DNA of 64,000 nt from Parcubacteria group bacterium Gr01-1014_3 (GCA_007376445.1 VMGF01000002.1:167928-231927); one strand, 5' to 3'. Shown: positions 10,740 to 56,233, numbered from the stretch's first letter. Numbers and translations are program-made. Notes: generated by a model from the letters alone, not told the origin.

Positions 10740-11177
10740 TTATTTTGCTTCTTTCTTCAGCTTTTTCAGTTCGGCCTTCAGTTCATTAAAATCATCGAAA
10801 ACACCGGTCGCGAAAAGATACATCACGTCCCAGCGCTCTGGGTCATCCACTAGAATATAGCCCCTTTTGCCTTTTCCAAGATGAACTCCCAGCTCCAGGT
10901 GCCCAGACTTTCCGGCCGGCATCTGAAGAACCGCGATGTCGCATTCATCCAGATGCTTCCGGTCGAACTGGAACACATGCTTGGCGGCGTAACCCTTCAG
11001 CGCTTCTTTGAAACTATGTCCTCTGCCTTTTTCATAATCGCGCCACTTGTCATCCGCTTCCGGACCGGCTGCATACCAGTCATCAAACACTTCAAATCCC
11101 AATTCTCTGATCTGATTTGCCAACTTAGGAACTTCCGGATTTCTCAAAGAGCCTATCAGATAGACCTTCATGGCCAT
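10740..11177 (-). CDS. nucleoside 2-deoxyribosyltransferase-like protein
   Basis: KVYLIGSL ... AGKSGHLELGVHLGKGK resembles the Nuc_deoxyrib_tr fold (active-site Glu context). Internal Met start preferred. Confidence 0.45.
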   Translation of the reverse strand: MAMKVYLIGSLRNPEVPKLANQIRELGFEVFDDWYAAGPEADDKWRDYEKGRGHSFKEALKGYAAKHVFQFDRKHLDECDIAVLQMPAGKSGHLELGVHLGKGKRGYILVDDPERWDVMYLFATGVFDDFNELKAELKKLKKEAK

Positions 11178-11281
11178 CTTGATTCCTTTCTTAGAACACC
11201 TCCAATTTAGCAAAGGATTTTAAGTCGCGCAAGTTTGAAATTTTTAAACTTTGAGTTATAATACAAAGCAGTTCTTAATAT

Positions 11282-11572
11282 TCCCCGGTAGCTCAGCGGT
11301 AGAGCAGCTCGCTGTGAAATAGCGCAGCCTCCTAGAGTAATCTAGGTTGAATAACGAGGTGAACTCGGTGAAACCCCTTTGGGGCAATACCGAGCCAAGC
11401 CCAGATGAAAATCTGGGAAGGTGTAGAGACTATCCCGAAAGGGAGTACTCCAGCGAAAGCTGGCGGAAGCGCCTCGATCCGACAAAGGTCGGATATGATA
11501 TAGTCCACCCCTATTAGTAATAGTAGGACAAGTGTAACGAGAAGGTCCCAGGTTCGATCCCTGGCCGGGGAG
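11282..11572 (+). tRNA. tRNA interrupted by a roughly 219-nt group I intron in the anticodon loop; mature anticodon most likely GUU (Asn), alternatively UGU (Thr)
   Basis: 5' half TCCCCGG-TA-GCTC-AGCGGTA-GAGC-A-GCTCG-CUGU; 3' half UAA-CGAGA-AGGTC-CCAGG-TTCGATC-CCTGG-CCGGGGA-G. P1 pairs exon GCUGU with intron GCAGC through a U.G wobble. Confidence 0.7.
11316..11534 (+). ncRNA. group I intron (self-splicing type) within the tRNA
   Basis: Conserved core elements GACUAUC (R, about 11428) and GAUAUAGUCC (S, about 11498); terminal G; 5' exon ends in U. Confidence 0.65.
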
Positions 11573-11617
11573 CAAATAAAAAAGCCAAGTATTTCAACTT
11601 GGCTAAAAATTTCACGA

Positions 11618-11932
11618 CTACGCATTGGCCATGAGCATCTGCCGATGGGAATGCTCCTTCTTCATCTTCCCGAGCGTAGTAGTTTCCCATGTCGCGAAAA
11701 GATCATCTGCCTTGAGCCATCCATCATGATTGCTAGAACCGGGACCGAGAACATCGCGCTGCAGCTTACCATCCCAAAACGCATAGCAGATAGTAATGAA
11801 CCGCTTTGACTTCTTATTCCACTGAATTGCTCCCGTCTCATACCCTTTTGGGCGGATAAGGCATCCTTCGTCTTTGGCTCTCTGCATTGCGGTCAAAAAG
11901 TCCATATTCATACCTCCTAGAACTTGCCACAT
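11618..11932 (-). CDS. hypothetical protein
   Basis: ORF only; no recognisable motif. Confidence 0.35.
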   Translation of the reverse strand: MWQVLGGMNMDFLTAMQRAKDEGCLIRPKGYETGAIQWNKKSKRFITICYAFWDGKLQRDVLGPGSSNHDGWLKADDLFATWETTTLGKMKKEHSHRQMLMANA

Positions 11933-12021
11933 ATTACAATATAAAATTTTCTATGTCAAATCGCTTGCGCTTGTAAAAACGCTTTGTTAAATTTTAGTCA
12001 GTACATTCAAGGAGTGGCCAG

Positions 12022-12465
12022 TTGAAACTGCCGAACCAATATTGGACCAAGAAAGATATTCAGGATGTTAAGAAGGCGAAAAGTTTTGGCGATCTTTCGG
12101 TGGTAGCAATGCGGGTGGTCGCGCGGATGCCCCAGCCGGTTGGCGAGGTTTGCGGACCGATCACCTCCGGCGGACTCGGCTCACGAGAAAAGAATCTAAA
12201 AGCCTTTAATCAGGCAATCGATAAGCTACGTAAAGCCGGCAACTGCATTTTTGATCAGATTCCGTTTGAGGAAAAGCTTTACGAGTTCACGCAGGCTAAG
12301 TGGTATAAAGGCGGACTTCAGCTCTTGAGTGAGTTTTATCTTCCGATCTTCAAGTCAGGACTGATCGATACTTTCTACTTTATGTCGCTCTGGCACACCT
12401 CAATGGGAGCCAAGTGGGAGCATGATCAGGCCAAGGCGCTTGGGATCAGGATAGTTTATTTATAA
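12022..12465 (+). CDS. hypothetical protein (TTG start, AAGGAG RBS)
   Basis: RBS AAGGAG 8 nt upstream of TTG. CGPITSGG motif; possibly a nucleoside-transferase-like fold. Confidence 0.4.
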   Translation: MKLPNQYWTKKDIQDVKKAKSFGDLSVVAMRVVARMPQPVGEVCGPITSGGLGSREKNLKAFNQAIDKLRKAGNCIFDQIPFEEKLYEFTQAKWYKGGLQLLSEFYLPIFKSGLIDTFYFMSLWHTSMGAKWEHDQAKALGIRIVYL

Positions 12466-12470
12466 AAAAG

Positions 12471-12505
12471 TCCCCTTCCGCCAGTTGGCGGAGGGGATTT
12501 TTATT
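12471..12505. terminator. bidirectional rho-independent terminator (TCCCCT-TCCGCCagttGGCGGA-GGGGA + T-run)
   Basis: Hairpin flanked by A-run and T-run between convergent genes. Confidence 0.7.
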
Positions 12506-12808
12506 TTAGTCGCGCATATTTACTTCATAAGTCTCTCGGTATGATATCACATAGCGTACCGGGATCAATACGACCATACGGCCCGCAGCGCCTTTGGGTA
12601 TGTAGGTTACCCTCAGACAATCTTCGTTCGTAGCCAAAGCTTTGATCGGCTGTTCATCGATCTCGGCGCTCGGGGCTAATTGATAGGCTGGATTCAAAGA
12701 TTCGACAACCAAATCTTCTGGAAGAATGTGCCCGTCCAGCAACCAATCGGAGCCACTCCGCTCAAGATACCAATTGAAAAGGATTACGACCCTGCGAAAA
12801 GACCACAT
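12506..12808 (-). CDS. hypothetical small protein
   Basis: ORF preceded by the family-3 leader that supplies GGGAGG 6 nt upstream of the ATG. Confidence 0.45.
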   Translation of the reverse strand: MWSFRRVVILFNWYLERSGSDWLLDGHILPEDLVVESLNPAYQLAPSAEIDEQPIKALATNEDCLRVTYIPKGAAGRMVVLIPVRYVISYRETYEVNMRD

Positions 12809-12814
12809 ATTTAG

Positions 12815-12882
12815 CCTCCCTAAATCAAATCCCTGATTTGATCGGGCGACCTAACTCACCACATAGTGAGTTAGGTTTAGCC
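12815..12882 (-). promoter_or_regulatory. conserved structured 5' leader (family 3, copy A)
   Basis: mRNA sense: GGCUAAACC-[ACCUAACUCAC..GUGAGUUAGGU hairpin]-CGCCCG-[AUCAAAU cagggAUUUGAU hairpin]-UUAGGGAGG-N6-AUG. Confidence 0.6.
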
Positions 12883-12949
12883 TCAAATCACTGGCCCAAC
12901 TATACCACTATATATAGAAGACGTCCAGGCTTGGTTCTAAGCCGCCCTA

Positions 12950-12978
12950 TTGACATTTAGCATTCTATCTATTATAAT
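12950..12978 (+). promoter_or_regulatory. consensus sigma70 promoter (TTGACA-17-TATAAT)
   Basis: Exact -35 and -10 hexamers with a 17-nt spacer, upstream of the surface-protein gene. Confidence 0.55.
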
Positions 12979-13006
12979 GTGCCTATCAAATAAAAAGGAA
13001 CGAAGT

Positions 13007-13106
13007 CCCGTTAGAACTGGCCAATACGGCTATTTCTAGGGAGGCATCGTAAAAAAAATACACATAAAATATGAAGATAATTAAAAATATCACCAGTTCT
13101 AACGGG
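13007..13106. repeat. CCCGTTAGA inverted-repeat element, copy 3 (CCCGTTAGAAC ... GTTCTAACGGG)
   Basis: 11-bp perfect terminal inverted repeat around an AT-rich interior that contains GGGAGG. The right end abuts the ATG at 13107. Confidence 0.65.
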
Positions 13107-14612
13107 ATGAAAAAACTCATCGTTTTCGGCCTTTTAATGGGCCTGATCGCAGTCAATTTAATACAAGTTAACGTCGTGGAAGCGGCCAGCGAGCCGTGGT
13201 GCTATTTCATCTTCCAGAAGTGCAATGACAACGATGATTCCAGCGCGCCTAGCTCCGCTCCGGCGACTAATAATCCTCCGGTTTGGACTAGTGGGCAGAC
13301 TTCTTATAGCGCCAAAACTGGCGAGCTTTTACAGTTCACGGTAAACGCCATGGATCCGGAAGGAGCCACGCTCATCTATCGGGCTTCTTTTATTCCAAAC
13401 AGCGCGAACTTTAACGAAAACACTCATGTCTTTTCTTGGACTCCAAGTGACAACCAGCTTGGTAATTATTCCATTGAATTCAGCGCTTATGACGGCACTA
13501 ACCGCATTTACCAGAACATTAACGTCCAGGTCATTAAGGGCGTTCAGAATCCGGGCAACAGCCGCCCAGTTTGGACCACGATTCCAAGTCAAACCGCTTA
13601 TGTCGGCCAGACTTTGCAATTCTCTGTCTATGCCAACGACAACGACGGCGACACTGTAAACTATTCCGCTTTGAATTTACCGAGCGGCTCTAACTTCCAA
13701 GAATCCAACCGGACTTTCACTTGGAATCCGAGCTCCGGCCAGGTTGGTTCTCACATCGTCAGCTTCCGCGCTTCTGATGGCACCAACTATGCCGATATGG
13801 GCGTGACTATCACTGTCATCAATGGCACTCCGGTCGTGGGAAATAATAAACCGGTTTTAACCGGCTTCAACCCGCCGATCCGCGCCAATGTCGGTAAGCT
13901 CTATATTTATGATGTTAATTCTACTGATCCAGATGGCGACCCGATCTTCTATATTTTGAATTCCGGTCCGGCCGGTCTGACGATGAATTCCGTCAACGGC
14001 GTTATCAGCTGGGTTCCGTCCGCGAATCAGTTGAACTTCAATCAGGTCAACTTCTCCGTCTCTGACGGCAAGACTCCGACTACTGTCAGCTTCTTCATCT
14101 TCGTGGAAGCCGCGACCGCTCCGGCTCCGGCTGAACCGATCATTGTTGAGCCAAGCGAAGCTCGCGTAGTTATCAGCGATTTGAGCATGCGCGCTGAGGA
14201 TGGCGTGGTCATTGTTTCTTGGAATACCAATATTCCGACCCGCGCTCGCGTGATCTTCGGTGATACTTCCGAAGCGACTAAGACCCGCAACTTTACCTAT
14301 GACGACGCGACTCCGGAAATTCTCGCTATGAGCCGGGACCATGAAGTGAAGCTTGAAGATTTGGAAATGGAAAAGGTTTATTACCTCCGCGCGGTCGCCA
14401 AGACCGACGGCCAGACCGTCACCAGCCGCGAAGTCACCTTTGTGCAACTTCCTGGCCAGGGTGGTCTCCAGTTCTTTGGAGCCGCTTCCCTCTTGTCCAC
14501 CTTGGGCAACTTGCTGACGGAACCGATCGTACTCTTACTCGCGATTGTCGGCATGTTGATCTTTATGTATCTCCAGAATAAGAAAATCGCGAAGCTGAAA
14601 TCACCGTTATAA
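13107..14612 (+). CDS. cell-surface protein with four Ig-like (He_PIG/cadherin-like) repeats and a C-terminal TM anchor
   Basis: Signal peptide MKKLIVFGLLMGLIAV. Four roughly 90-aa repeats (PVWT..G.T..F.V.A.D.DGD). C-terminal hydrophobic helix. An alternative start exists at 13071. Confidence 0.6.
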   Translation: MKKLIVFGLLMGLIAVNLIQVNVVEAASEPWCYFIFQKCNDNDDSSAPSSAPATNNPPVWTSGQTSYSAKTGELLQFTVNAMDPEGATLIYRASFIPNSANFNENTHVFSWTPSDNQLGNYSIEFSAYDGTNRIYQNINVQVIKGVQNPGNSRPVWTTIPSQTAYVGQTLQFSVYANDNDGDTVNYSALNLPSGSNFQESNRTFTWNPSSGQVGSHIVSFRASDGTNYADMGVTITVINGTPVVGNNKPVLTGFNPPIRANVGKLYIYDVNSTDPDGDPIFYILNSGPAGLTMNSVNGVISWVPSANQLNFNQVNFSVSDGKTPTTVSFFIFVEAATAPAPAEPIIVEPSEARVVISDLSMRAEDGVVIVSWNTNIPTRARVIFGDTSEATKTRNFTYDDATPEILAMSRDHEVKLEDLEMEKVYYLRAVAKTDGQTVTSREVTFVQLPGQGGLQFFGAASLLSTLGNLLTEPIVLLLAIVGMLIFMYLQNKKIAKLKSPL

Positions 14613-40839: not shown

Positions 40840-40907
40840 GGCTAAACCAAATTCGTTATGTGGCGAATTTGGTCGCCCGATCAAATCAGGGATTTGATTT
40901 AGGGAGG
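40840..40907 (+). promoter_or_regulatory. conserved structured 5' leader (family 3, copy C)
   Basis: GGCUAAACC-[AAAUUCG..CGAAUUU hairpin]-GGUCGCCCG-[AUCAAAUcagggAUUUGAU]-UUAGGGAGG-N5-AUG. Confidence 0.6.
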
Positions 40908-56089: not shown

Positions 56090-56155
56090 CCTCCCTAAAT
56101 CAAATCCCTGATTTGATCGGGCGACCAACTTGCCACAAGGCAAGTTGGTTTAGCC
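56090..56155 (-). promoter_or_regulatory. conserved structured 5' leader (family 3, copy B)
   Basis: GGCUAAACC-[AACUUGCC uugu GGCAAGUU]-GGUCGCCCG-[AUCAAAUcagggAUUUGAU]-UUAGGGAGG-N7-AUG. Confidence 0.6.
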
Positions 56156-56233
56156 TTCTCTAGTTATAAAAGTGCCGAACTACCTTAACAGAAACCTTTG
56201 CGATAGTCAATTAGACCCACGCCGTTGGCGGGG

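What the first reader, a model, noticed from the sequence alone, without database searches (positions are those of the whole stretch)
11282..11572. tRNA gene split by a group I intron in the anticodon loop
A canonical tRNA 5' half (acceptor, D arm, anticodon stem GCUCG, loop CUGU) and 3' half (UAA, CGAGA, variable loop, T arm, acceptor CCGGGGA) are separated by about 219 nt. The intron carries the group I R (GACUAUC) and S (GAUAUAGUCC) core elements. A P1 helix can pair exon GCUGU with intron GCAGC through a U.G wobble at the splice site, and the intron ends in G. The spliced anticodon would be GUU (Asn); the alternative splice register gives UGU (Thr). The 43/27 anticodon-stem pair is a G.A mismatch, which is unusual.
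Basis: partly seen in the sequence, partly recalled or inferred. Interest (0 to 1): 0.6.

Follow-up and report, generated by a model that had tools for sequence, protein, structure and literature searches.

The report
Self-splicing intron inside tRNA-Asn gene
This is a real asparagine tRNA gene interrupted in its anticodon by a 219-base group I (self-splicing type) intron, a kind already catalogued in a 2020 preprint and common in ultrasmall groundwater bacteria, so it is correct but ordinary.

Summary
Window 11282-11572 (+) is a tRNA gene with these parts:
- 5' exon, 11282-11315
- 219-nt group I intron, 11316-11534
- 3' exon, 11535-11572

Rfam Intron_gpI scores 57.8 bits (gathering score 50, E 4.6e-12). 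All helices P1-P9, plus P7.1 and P7.2, can be drawn with standard pairs. Across 42 homologous copies from different species, 91.6% of cells are paired (35-43% in slid controls), and 49 of 67 pairs show compensatory changes.

The splice register is settled as Asn(GUU), not Thr(UGU):
- The only U.G wobble in P1 is at U35.
- The tRNA body matches annotated tRNA-Asn genes whichever register is used.
- Two metagenome contigs carry an uninterrupted gene 72/72 identical to the Asn-register product. One of them is a close relative with 88-99% identical neighbouring DNA.

The G27.A43 mismatch is real, but it also occurs in uninterrupted tRNA-Asn genes.

The class "Asn.4Ug" is already listed in Williams 2020 (bioRxiv). 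I recovered 64 further copies, mostly in Patescibacteria, with some in cyanobacteria and Anaerolineae. About a third carry an HNH endonuclease ORF in the P1 loop; the window copy has none.

Self-splicing itself is inferred, not shown. Verdict: new member of a known kind, of modest interest.

The parts
11235..11262 (+). Sigma-70-like promoter TTGAAA-16 nt-TATAAT, ending 20 nt upstream of tRNA position 1
   Evidence: 11 of 12 consensus matches and the only promoter-like site in 11100-11750. The same promoter sequence precedes the intron-less gene in L147. Function is inferred.
11282..11315 (+). 5' exon: tRNA-Asn positions 1-35 (acceptor 5' strand, D arm, anticodon stem 5' strand GCUCG, loop C32 U33 G34 U35)
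   Evidence: It is identical to the 5' part of the uninterrupted genes in L147 and L138.
11316..11534 (+). Group I intron, 219 nt, no ORF; begins with G1 and ends with omega-G at 11534
   Evidence: Rfam RF00028 57.8 bits, E 4.6e-12. Window-derived covariance model R1 scores 230 bits on the window. Covariation is shown.
11311..11328 (+). P1: exon GCUGU plus G1 (11311-11316) pairs with CGCAGC (11323-11328); U35.G wobble between 11315 and 11324; loop AAAUAG
   Evidence: In 42 homologues the wobble is U.G in 40, and the adjacent pair (intron +1 with the base 5' of GCAGC) covaries: GC 24, AU 6, CG 3, UA 2.
11331..11346 (+). P2 hairpin CCUAGA-GUAA-UCUAGG
   Evidence: All 6 pairs show compensatory changes; 98.8% of cells paired (helix 2).
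11355..11361 (+). P3 5' strand CGAGGUG (pairs with 11470-11476)
   Evidence: 99% of cells paired and 4 of 7 pairs show compensatory changes (helix 3).
11364..11394 (+). P4 (11364-11369 with 11389-11394) and P5 (11374-11377 with 11381-11384), joined by J4/5 GAAA and J5/4 CAAU
   Evidence: helices 4-6.
11395..11421 (+). P6/P6a hairpin with a GAAA loop
   Evidence: helices 7-8 (all pairs covary).
11426..11432 (+).
   Evidence: Invariant and 100% paired in 42 homologues (helix 9). The position of the guanosine-binding site is from established knowledge of group I introns.
11433..11463 (+). P7.1 (UCCC-GAAA-GGGA, 11433-11444) and P7.2 (CCAGC-GAAA-GCUGG, 11450-11463), two extra hairpins between P7 and P3'
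   Evidence: Rfam treats this stretch as a 35-nt insertion. Both hairpins show compensatory changes (helices 10-11). They are the structural hallmark of IA-type introns (review PMC3984707; own knowledge).
11470..11476 (+). P3 3' strand CGCCUCG
11477..11494 (+). P8 hairpin AUCCGAC-AAAG-GUCGGAU
   Evidence: helix 13 (6 of 7 pairs covary).
11495..11506 (+).
   Evidence: Partly fixed by my search pattern, so its invariance among the homologues is not independent evidence.
11510..11527 (+). P9 hairpin CCUAUUA-GUAA-UAGUAGG, followed by ACAAGUG ending in omega-G at 11534
   Evidence: helix 14.
11535..11572 (+). 3' exon: tRNA-Asn positions 36-73 (U36 A37 A38, stem CGAGA, variable loop, T arm, acceptor 3' strand, discriminator G73). 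No CCA is encoded (the next bases are CAA)
   Evidence: Identical to the uninterrupted genes in L147 and L138.
11583..11604 (-). Terminator-like hairpin with a T-run on the minus strand; it ends the convergent gene 11932..11618 and may also stop the tRNA transcript
   Evidence: Conserved in L147. A role for the tRNA transcript is inferred only.

Best explanation
Window 11282-11572 is a tRNA-Asn(GUU) gene of a probable Patescibacteria (candidate phyla radiation) genome. A 219-nt, ORF-less group I intron interrupts it between anticodon nucleotides U35 and U36.

The likely pathway is as follows:
1. The gene is transcribed from the promoter-like site at 11235-11262.
2. The intron folds into the P1-P9 ribozyme, an IA-like core with P7.1 and P7.2.
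3. A free guanosine attacks after U35, which is held in the P1 U.G wobble.
4. The terminal G (11534) then takes the guanosine site, and the 5' exon attacks after it.
5. The exons are joined into the loop CUGUUAA.
6. RNase P, 3' trimming and CCA addition finish the tRNA.

The intron belongs to a widespread mobile family whose fuller members encode an HNH homing endonuclease in the P1 loop. The window copy is a minimal derivative without that gene.

Shown here: the gene structure, the fold and its covariation, the register, and the existence of an intron-less allele. Inferred: catalysis, the order of processing, homing, and that the promoter-like site is used.
For: Group I identity:
- Rfam RF00028 scores 57.8 bits, above the gathering score of 50, with E 4.6e-12.
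- All 11 helices can be drawn with standard pairs.
- In alignment A4 (42 copies from different species), 91.6% of cells are paired against 35-43% when the partners are slid.
- In the same alignment, 49 of 67 pairs show compensatory changes, no shuffle out of 500 reaches the observed values, and P7 is invariant.

Register and isotype:
- U35 forms the P1 wobble in 40 of 42 copies, and the neighbouring P1 pair covaries.
- All 65 split genes end their 5' exon in CUGU and have U1-A72 and G73, by inspection.
- Blastn of the spliced product in either register finds tRNA-Asn as the best annotated matches: 88.9% and 86.1% over 72 nt. No tRNA-Thr is among the listed rows.
- L147 and L138 carry an uninterrupted gene 72/72 identical to the Asn-register product. 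L147 is 88-99% identical to window 11573-13333.

Family and mobility:
- The class Asn.4Ug is listed in Williams 2020.
- Its seed is 93-97% identical to the cyanobacterial copies L030, L009, L005 and L068. Those copies score 125-134 bits with the window-derived model.
- Of the 21 copies with an intron of 450 nt or more, 18 have an ORF of about 100-136 aa in the P1 loop that shows the HNH sequence signature.
- Only two of these ORFs were scanned against Pfam PF01844. One scored 23.9 bits, above the cut-off of 21.4, and the other 20.0 bits, just below it.
Against: - No RNA data: neither splicing nor the ligated junction has been observed for this or any tRNA-Asn intron that I could find in the literature.
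- No convincing P10 pairing can be drawn between the 3' exon and the P1 loop.
- The anticodon stem that holds the exons together has only four Watson-Crick pairs plus the G.A mismatch.
- I could not see the whole genome, so a second, intact tRNA-Asn gene cannot be excluded.
- Alignment A4 was fitted to the model structure, which inflates the pairing percentages somewhat.
- The 3' tail and J8/7 were fixed by my search pattern, so their conservation is not independent evidence.
Confidence: 0.88

Rival explanations
1. Same intron, but spliced two bases upstream at both ends (CU|GUG...AAG|UGUAA), giving tRNA-Thr(UGU).
For: Both registers have a U before the 5' site and a G before the 3' site. ARAGORN in intron mode calls the window gene Thr(tgt), and it of the 44 homologous loci it resolved Thr(tgt) as well.
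Against: - In P1, U33 pairs with A, so it is not a wobble. The only U.G is at U35, in 40 of 42 copies.
- The tRNA body has U1-A72 and G73, typical of bacterial tRNA-Asn (own knowledge of identity elements).
- Even with the Thr loop inserted, the spliced product best matches annotated tRNA-Asn genes, and no tRNA-Thr is listed.
- Intron-less genes in L147 and L138 read CUGUUAA and are 72/72 identical to the Asn product.
Confidence: 0.02
2. The gene is a decaying relic: the intron no longer splices, and a second, intact tRNA-Asn gene elsewhere in the genome does the work.
For: - The copy has lost the endonuclease ORF.
- No P10 can be drawn.
- There is a G.A mismatch in the anticodon stem.
- Only 64 kb of the genome is visible, and no other tRNA-Asn gene lies in it.
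Against: - Every core helix and every family-invariant position is intact.
- The exons are identical to the intact gene of a relative, although the flanks have diverged by 1-12%.
- A near-consensus promoter is retained.
- ORF-less copies are the majority in the family: 43 distinct copies, window included, have an intron of 320 nt or less, against 21 of 450 nt or more.
- Patescibacteria usually have single-copy tRNA genes (own knowledge).
Confidence: 0.06
3. The intron is spliced in vivo only with the help of a host protein or RNA chaperone, and not autonomously.
For: Some IA-type group I introns are helped by proteins in vivo (own knowledge). P10 is weak here.
Against: The core is complete. 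Several GNRA loops (L2, L6a, L7.1, L7.2, L9) are available for tertiary contacts. No maturase-like ORF lies in or next to the intron. This is a variant of the main explanation more than a true alternative.
Confidence: 0.04

Closest known systems
'Asn.4Ug' class of group I intron-split tRNA genes (Williams 2020, bioRxiv 10.1101/2020.01.27.920355; seed Pam37.Asn.4Ug)
   Same: - Same host tRNA (Asn, GUU).
- Same insertion point, after the fourth anticodon-loop nucleotide.
- U at -1 and G at omega.
- P7.1/P7.2 hairpins, the same J8/7-P9 region, and a tail ending ...AAGUG.
- The seed is 93-97% identical to copies L030, L009, L005 and L068 in my set. Those copies match the window-derived model at 125-134 bits.
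   Different: The window copy is shorter than the seed (219 against 273 nt): it has no P2.1 and a small P6. It is only about 62% identical to the seed in a global alignment. It sits in a probable Patescibacteria genome, whereas the seed's closest relatives are cyanobacterial.
Classical bacterial tRNA group I introns, subgroup IC3 (Azoarcus tRNA-Ile, Anabaena/cyanobacterial tRNA-Leu(UAA), tRNA-fMet, Agrobacterium tRNA-Arg)
   Same: Small ORF-less ribozymes in the anticodon loop, with U.G at the 5' splice site, a terminal G, and a very similar P4-P6 and P7 core sequence. The exons are held together by the anticodon stem.
   Different: The host tRNA and loop position differ. The window intron has P7.1 and P7.2 between P7 and P3', which IC3 introns lack. 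The preprint states that the four classical types are all IC3.
Subgroup IA group I introns with P7.1/P7.2 (for example phage T4 td and Twort orf142 introns; own knowledge)
   Same: Two extra hairpins between P7 and P3', a compact P5 with no P5abc, and endonuclease ORFs carried in peripheral loops in related copies.
   Different: Those introns sit in phage protein-coding genes; this one sits in a cellular tRNA gene. I did not determine the exact subclass (IA1, IA2 or IA3).
[quoted passage not shown]
   Same: The family to which the window intron belongs includes copies with an intron-encoded endonuclease, so homing into the tRNA anticodon region is plausible.
   Different: Here the ORF carries an HNH signature in the P1 loop of other copies. 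The window copy has none, and no activity has been tested.

Membership tests
Group I intron (Rfam RF00028) | Covariance-model score at or above the curated gathering score | tested here: met
   57.8 bits against 50, E 4.6e-12.
Group I intron (Rfam RF00028) | Conserved core P3-P8, with the P3/P7 pseudoknot and P7 carrying a bulged A (guanosine site) | tested here: met
   All helices can be drawn with standard pairs. 91.6% of cells are paired, 49 of 67 pairs covary, and P7 is invariant in 42 copies.
Group I intron (Rfam RF00028) | 5' splice site after a U that forms a U.G wobble in P1 | tested here: met
   U35 (11315) pairs with G9 (11324); the pair is U.G in 40 of 42 homologues.
Group I intron (Rfam RF00028) | Intron ends in G (omega-G) | tested here: met
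   G at 11534. Among the homologues this base was fixed by the search pattern.
Group I intron (Rfam RF00028) | Guanosine-dependent self-splicing | not testable with these tools
   This needs in vitro transcription and splicing, or RNA data.
Asn.4Ug class (Williams 2020) | Host tRNA is tRNA-Asn | tested here: met
   The best annotated matches are tRNA-Asn in both registers. The gene has U1-A72 and G73. The spliced product is identical to uninterrupted GUU genes.
Asn.4Ug class (Williams 2020) | Insertion after anticodon-loop position 4 (between nt 35 and 36), with U at -1 and G at omega | tested here: met
   The position of the P1 wobble, and the intron-less allele reading CUGUUAA.
Asn.4Ug class (Williams 2020) | Homology to the class seed | tested here: met
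   The seed is 93-97% identical to L030, L009, L005 and L068. Those copies match the window-derived model at E of about 1e-40. The window itself is about 62% identical to the seed.
Subgroup IA group I introns | Extra helices P7.1 and P7.2 between P7 and P3' | tested here: met
   Hairpins at 11433-11444 and 11450-11463, with compensatory changes (helices 10-11). The classification criterion comes from PMC3984707 and own knowledge.
Subgroup IA group I introns | Assignment to IA1, IA2 or IA3 by the finer criteria | not tested
   No subgroup-specific models were available.
Subgroup IC3 (classical tRNA introns) | No helices between P7 and P3' | tested here: not met
   A 35-nt insertion forming P7.1 and P7.2 is present.
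Mobile (homing) group I intron | Intron-encoded homing endonuclease | tested here: not met
   The 219-nt window intron has no plausible ORF (one search lists only short chance ORFs). Related long copies have an HNH-type ORF.
Mobile (homing) group I intron | Intron-plus and intron-minus alleles of the same gene in close relatives | tested here: met
   L147 has identical exons, no intron, and flanks 88-99% identical to the window.

The most novel reading that the evidence does not exclude
Two different ribozyme cores occupy this same tRNA-Asn site. The majority type, which includes the window, is IA-like with P7.1 and P7.2. A minority type (L006, L012, L063, L095, L099) lacks both hairpins and has a different P3 and P6. 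Yet the two types share an almost identical P1 guide, P2 hairpin and J2/3. They also share the P9 tail, but my search pattern selected for that. The window's closest protein-level relative among the fetched loci, L099 (Harrisonbacteria), carries the minority type. This would fit modular exchange of catalytic cores between introns that keep the same site-recognition module.

A corollary concerns the preprint. Its seed 'Pgr210.Thr.2Ug' has this minority core and a P1 wobble at loop position 4, not 2. The published Thr.2Ug class may therefore be mis-registered Asn.4Ug.
Probability: 0.3. Interest if true: 0.45.

Novelty: new member of a known kind. Interest (0 to 1): 0.3.

Why it matters
The practical point concerns annotation.
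- Standard tRNA finders miss this gene.
- Intron-aware ARAGORN labels the window gene, and 30 of the 44 homologous loci it resolved, as tRNA-Thr(UGU).
- Genomes of Patescibacteria and some cyanobacteria can therefore seem to lack tRNA-Asn, or to have an extra tRNA-Thr. That distorts completeness estimates and codon-usage inferences.

Biologically, if this is the only tRNA-Asn gene in the genome, all asparagine decoding depends on a ribozyme.

The family found here has 64 species-level copies in a truncated scan. It includes ORF-bearing and ORF-less forms, two core types, and matched intron-plus and intron-minus alleles. That makes it a convenient natural series for studying intron gain, loss and endonuclease decay.

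None of this changes what is known about group I introns.

Tried and rejected
- An exact 31-mer across the 5' splice junction found nothing in genome contigs. The source species is therefore not a representative genome there, or it differs in that stretch.
- A MAFFT alignment of 43 copies (A1, 538 columns) was too gappy for pair counting. I replaced it with a model-guided alignment (A4).
- A model search that included the long, ORF-bearing copies (A3) aligned a chance CTGT inside the HNH ORF as if it were the exon. Those rows were left out of the covariation count.
- Looking up the downstream protein (11618-11932) to see where the neighbouring Logan contig starts found nothing on record.
- The viral-contig scan gave one true copy, L165. 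It is a host tRNA-Asn gene lying next to an integrase, a rolling-circle replication initiator and a Zot-like gene, so it is not a phage-borne split tRNA.
- I considered chance resemblance and rejected it on the Rfam E-value and the covariation.
- I considered the Thr register and rejected it (see the rival explanations).
- I could not assign the source organism directly. The attribution to Patescibacteria/Parcubacteria rests on three indications: the best protein-level similarity is to a Harrisonbacteria contig, the hosts of the intron's relatives are mostly Patescibacteria, and relatives occur in 0.1-0.2 um groundwater filtrates.

Full report
**Observation**

- A tRNA 5' half lies at 11282-11315: acceptor TCCCCGG, D arm GCTC/GAGC, anticodon-stem strand GCTCG, then CTGT.
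- A 3' half lies at 11535-11572: TAA, CGAGA, AGGTC, T arm CCAGG-TTCGATC-CCTGG, acceptor CCGGGGA, discriminator G.
- The two halves are separated by exactly 219 nt.
- Default ARAGORN and the Rfam tRNA model do not report this gene.
- Rfam Intron_gpI does report it, at 57.8 bits against a gathering score of 50, with E 4.6e-12 for the whole window. P3, P4, P5, P6, P8, P9 and both P7 strands align to the model.
- ARAGORN in intron mode finds a split tRNA with a 219-nt intron at this place.
- The minimum-free-energy fold of the whole stretch has a z-score of -6.2 against shuffles. It recovers the acceptor, D and T arms and most of the intron hairpins.

**Anatomy**

I drew the full secondary structure by hand and checked it base by base.
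- P1: 11311-11316 with 11323-11328, with U35.G as the wobble
- P2: 11331-11346
- P3: 11355-11361 with 11470-11476
- P4 and P5: 11364-11394
- P6/P6a: 11395-11421
- P7: 11426-11432 with 11501-11506, with one bulged A
- P7.1: 11433-11444
- P7.2: 11450-11463
- P8: 11477-11494
- P9: 11510-11527
- Tail ACAAGUG, ending in the terminal G at 11534

Every pair is a standard pair. The two hairpins between P7 and P3' (P7.1, P7.2) are treated by the Rfam model as a 35-nt insertion. They are the feature that marks IA-type introns (PMC3984707; own knowledge). The four classical bacterial tRNA introns are all IC3 (Williams 2020). The intron has no plausible ORF.

A near-consensus promoter, TTGAAA-16-TATAAT, ends 20 nt before the tRNA. 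No CCA is encoded.

**Relatives**

Of these, 64 are split tRNA genes with the same layout.
- Every one has a 5' exon ending in CUGU, together with U1-A72 and G73. None of these features was part of the pattern.
- By record title, about 38 hosts are Patescibacteria lineages: Falkow-, Sacchari-, Moran-, Peregrini-, Kaiser-, Giovannoni-, Doudna-, Harrison-, Komeili- and Magasanikbacteria, plus 'Parcubacteria'.
- Nine hosts are filamentous cyanobacteria and three are Anaerolineae.
- A few are MAGs labelled Gammaproteobacteria, Bdellovibrionales or Woesearchaeota. Their tRNA is of the Patescibacteria type, so mis-binning is likely.

**Covariation**

From 21 short copies and my structure I built a covariance model. 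I used it to align 42 copies from different species. On that alignment:
- 91.6% of cells are standard pairs, against 35-43% when the 3' partners are slid by 1-3 columns.
- 49 of 67 pairs show changes on both sides.
- No shuffle out of 500 reaches any of the observed measures.
- P2, P3, P4, P6a, P7.1, P7.2, P8 and P9 all contain compensatory pairs. P7 never varies.

The alignment was fitted to the structure, so the percentages lean upward, but the gap to the controls is very large.

**Splice register**

Both CU|GUG...AAG|UGUAA (Thr, UGU) and CUGU|G...GUG|UAA (Asn, GUU) have U before the 5' site and G before the 3' site. ARAGORN picks Thr for the window, and for 30 of the 44 homologous loci it resolved. 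Three independent lines decide for Asn.

First, the wobble position in P1.
- C32-G, U33-A, G34-C, then U35.G: the only wobble is at U35, and it is U.G in 40 of 42 copies.
- The next pair (intron +1 with the base 5' of GCAGC) covaries as GC 24, AU 6, CG 3, UA 2, which fixes the register of the helix.

Second, the identity of the tRNA body.
- The spliced sequence finds annotated tRNA-Asn genes as its best matches in the phage collection, at up to 88.9% over all 72 nt.
- It still does so when the Thr loop is put in (86.1%), and no tRNA-Thr appears among the listed rows.

Third, the intron-less allele.
- A scan of metagenome contigs for the Asn-register junction found 29 uninterrupted genes.
- Two of them, L147 and L138 (the latter a Hainich groundwater 0.1-um filtrate), are 72/72 identical to the predicted product.
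- L147 is a close relative: its DNA is 88-99% identical to window 11573-13333. The window's 11234-11318 and 11535-11574 are adjacent in it, so the intron is precisely absent.

**The G27.A43 mismatch**

It is real. The junction pattern I searched required that same arm (GCUCG...CGAGA), and 29 uninterrupted genes carry it. The split genes in L006 and L099 have it too. Many other copies have G27.U43. It is a lineage variant and not a sign of decay.

**Mobility**

- 21 copies have an intron of 450 nt or more (484-898 nt). In 18 of them the extra sequence is an ORF of about 100-136 aa in the P1 loop with a CxxC...HH...CANCH signature.
- Two of these ORFs were scanned against Pfam HNH (PF01844). One scored 23.9 bits, above the cut-off of 21.4, and one 20.0 bits, just below it.
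- The 3' end of the ORF runs into the internal guide and P2.
- One cyanobacterial copy (L086) has a LAGLIDADG ORF instead.
- An ORF-less copy (L074) still carries the last codons of the HNH gene in its P1 loop.

The family therefore looks like a homing intron that repeatedly loses its endonuclease. The window copy, with a 6-nt P1 loop, is a fully reduced form. Homing has not been shown for any member.

**What is known**

Williams (bioRxiv 2020, 10.1101/2020.01.27.920355) ran an intron-aware tRNA pipeline over 80,413 bacterial genomes and extended the four classical cases to 21 settings. One of these is 'Asn.4Ug', and its seed alignment includes Pam37.Asn.4Ug.
- That seed is 93-97% identical to the cyanobacterial copies in my set.
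- Those copies match the window-derived model at 125-134 bits.
- The window intron is about 62% identical to the seed.

The finding is thus a further member of a catalogued class. I found no paper that tests splicing of a tRNA-Asn intron. A 2017 survey of cyanobacterial tRNAs does not list one, and tRNAscan-SE 2.0 states that it is not designed to detect such introns.

**Source organism**

It was not identified directly.
- The best protein-level similarity among the fetched loci is to a Candidatus Harrisonbacteria contig: 67% over 379 aa and 69% over 184 aa.
- The same locus occurs in a Logan assembly of run SRR8863434.
- A Patescibacteria (Parcubacteria group) origin is the likely reading.

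**Verdict**

The feature is a new member of a known kind. Catalysis is inferred from an intact, strongly covarying core and has not been observed.

The value is mainly for annotation, because the gene is missed or mislabelled by common tools. The family is also a tidy natural series for studying intron evolution. Interest is modest (0.3).

The most novel reading left open is that two different catalytic cores share one site-recognition module at this position, and that the preprint's Thr.2Ug class is the same site mis-registered.

Noticed in passing
window 12816-12883 (-), 40840-40906 (+), 56091-56160 (-); also L147 750-817: A repeat of about 68 nt (GGCTAAACC..GTCGCCCGATCAAATCAGGGATTTGATTTAGGGAGG) occurs three times in the window. 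It has two hairpins: the first shows compensatory changes between copies, the second is invariant. It ends in a Shine-Dalgarno-like GGGAGG just upstream of small hypothetical ORFs of 100, 91 and 103 aa. It matches no Rfam family. It is a candidate cis-regulatory 5'-UTR RNA motif.
   Followed up: partly
L147 197-319 compared with window 11234-11574: In the close relative that lacks the intron, the whole tRNA cassette (promoter plus gene) is inverted relative to the shared neighbour gene and its terminator hairpin. Beyond the tRNA the sequence no longer matches the window.
   Followed up: partly
L001 (Logan SRR8863434_56852) end, equal to window 11314: An independent assembly of the same locus breaks at ...GCTCGCTG, one base before the 5' splice site. 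This could reflect mixed intron-plus and intron-minus strains, or intron copies shared between species in the sample. It remains unexplained.
   Followed up: partly
L051 853-1200 and 17 other long copies (for example L011, L056, L064, L065, L071): An ORF of about 100-136 aa with an HNH sequence signature sits in the P1 loop of the same intron, and its 3' end overlaps the internal guide and P2. L086 has a LAGLIDADG ORF instead. ORF-less L074 keeps a remnant of the HNH C-terminus.
   Followed up: partly
L006, L012, L063, L095, L099 (and L053): A second intron core type occurs at the same tRNA-Asn site. It has no P7.1 or P7.2 and a different P3 and P6, but nearly the same P1 guide and P2. It resembles the preprint's seed Pgr210.Thr.2Ug, whose P1 wobble is at loop position 4, so that published class may be mis-registered.
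   Followed up: partly
L165 1217-1530 and 1468-6038 (IMG/VR contig): A split tRNA-Asn gene of the Falkowbacteria type lies directly next to a large integrase, a rolling-circle replication initiator and a Zot-like protein. This looks like an inovirus-like prophage integrated at the intron-containing tRNA gene.
   Followed up: partly
L025, L026, L034, L055, L057, L066, L104: MAGs labelled Woesearchaeota, Gammaproteobacteria or Bdellovibrionales carry a tRNA-Asn and intron nearly identical to those of Falkowbacteria and other Patescibacteria. Mis-binned or mislabelled contigs are likely. The preprint makes the same point for a 'Pacearchaeota' bin.
   Followed up: no
L157 233-460 (IMG/VR contig): Another group I intron with P7.1/P7.2-like features (72.8 bits with the window-derived model) lies in a viral contig, not in a tRNA gene, and an ORF starts inside it.
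   Followed up: no
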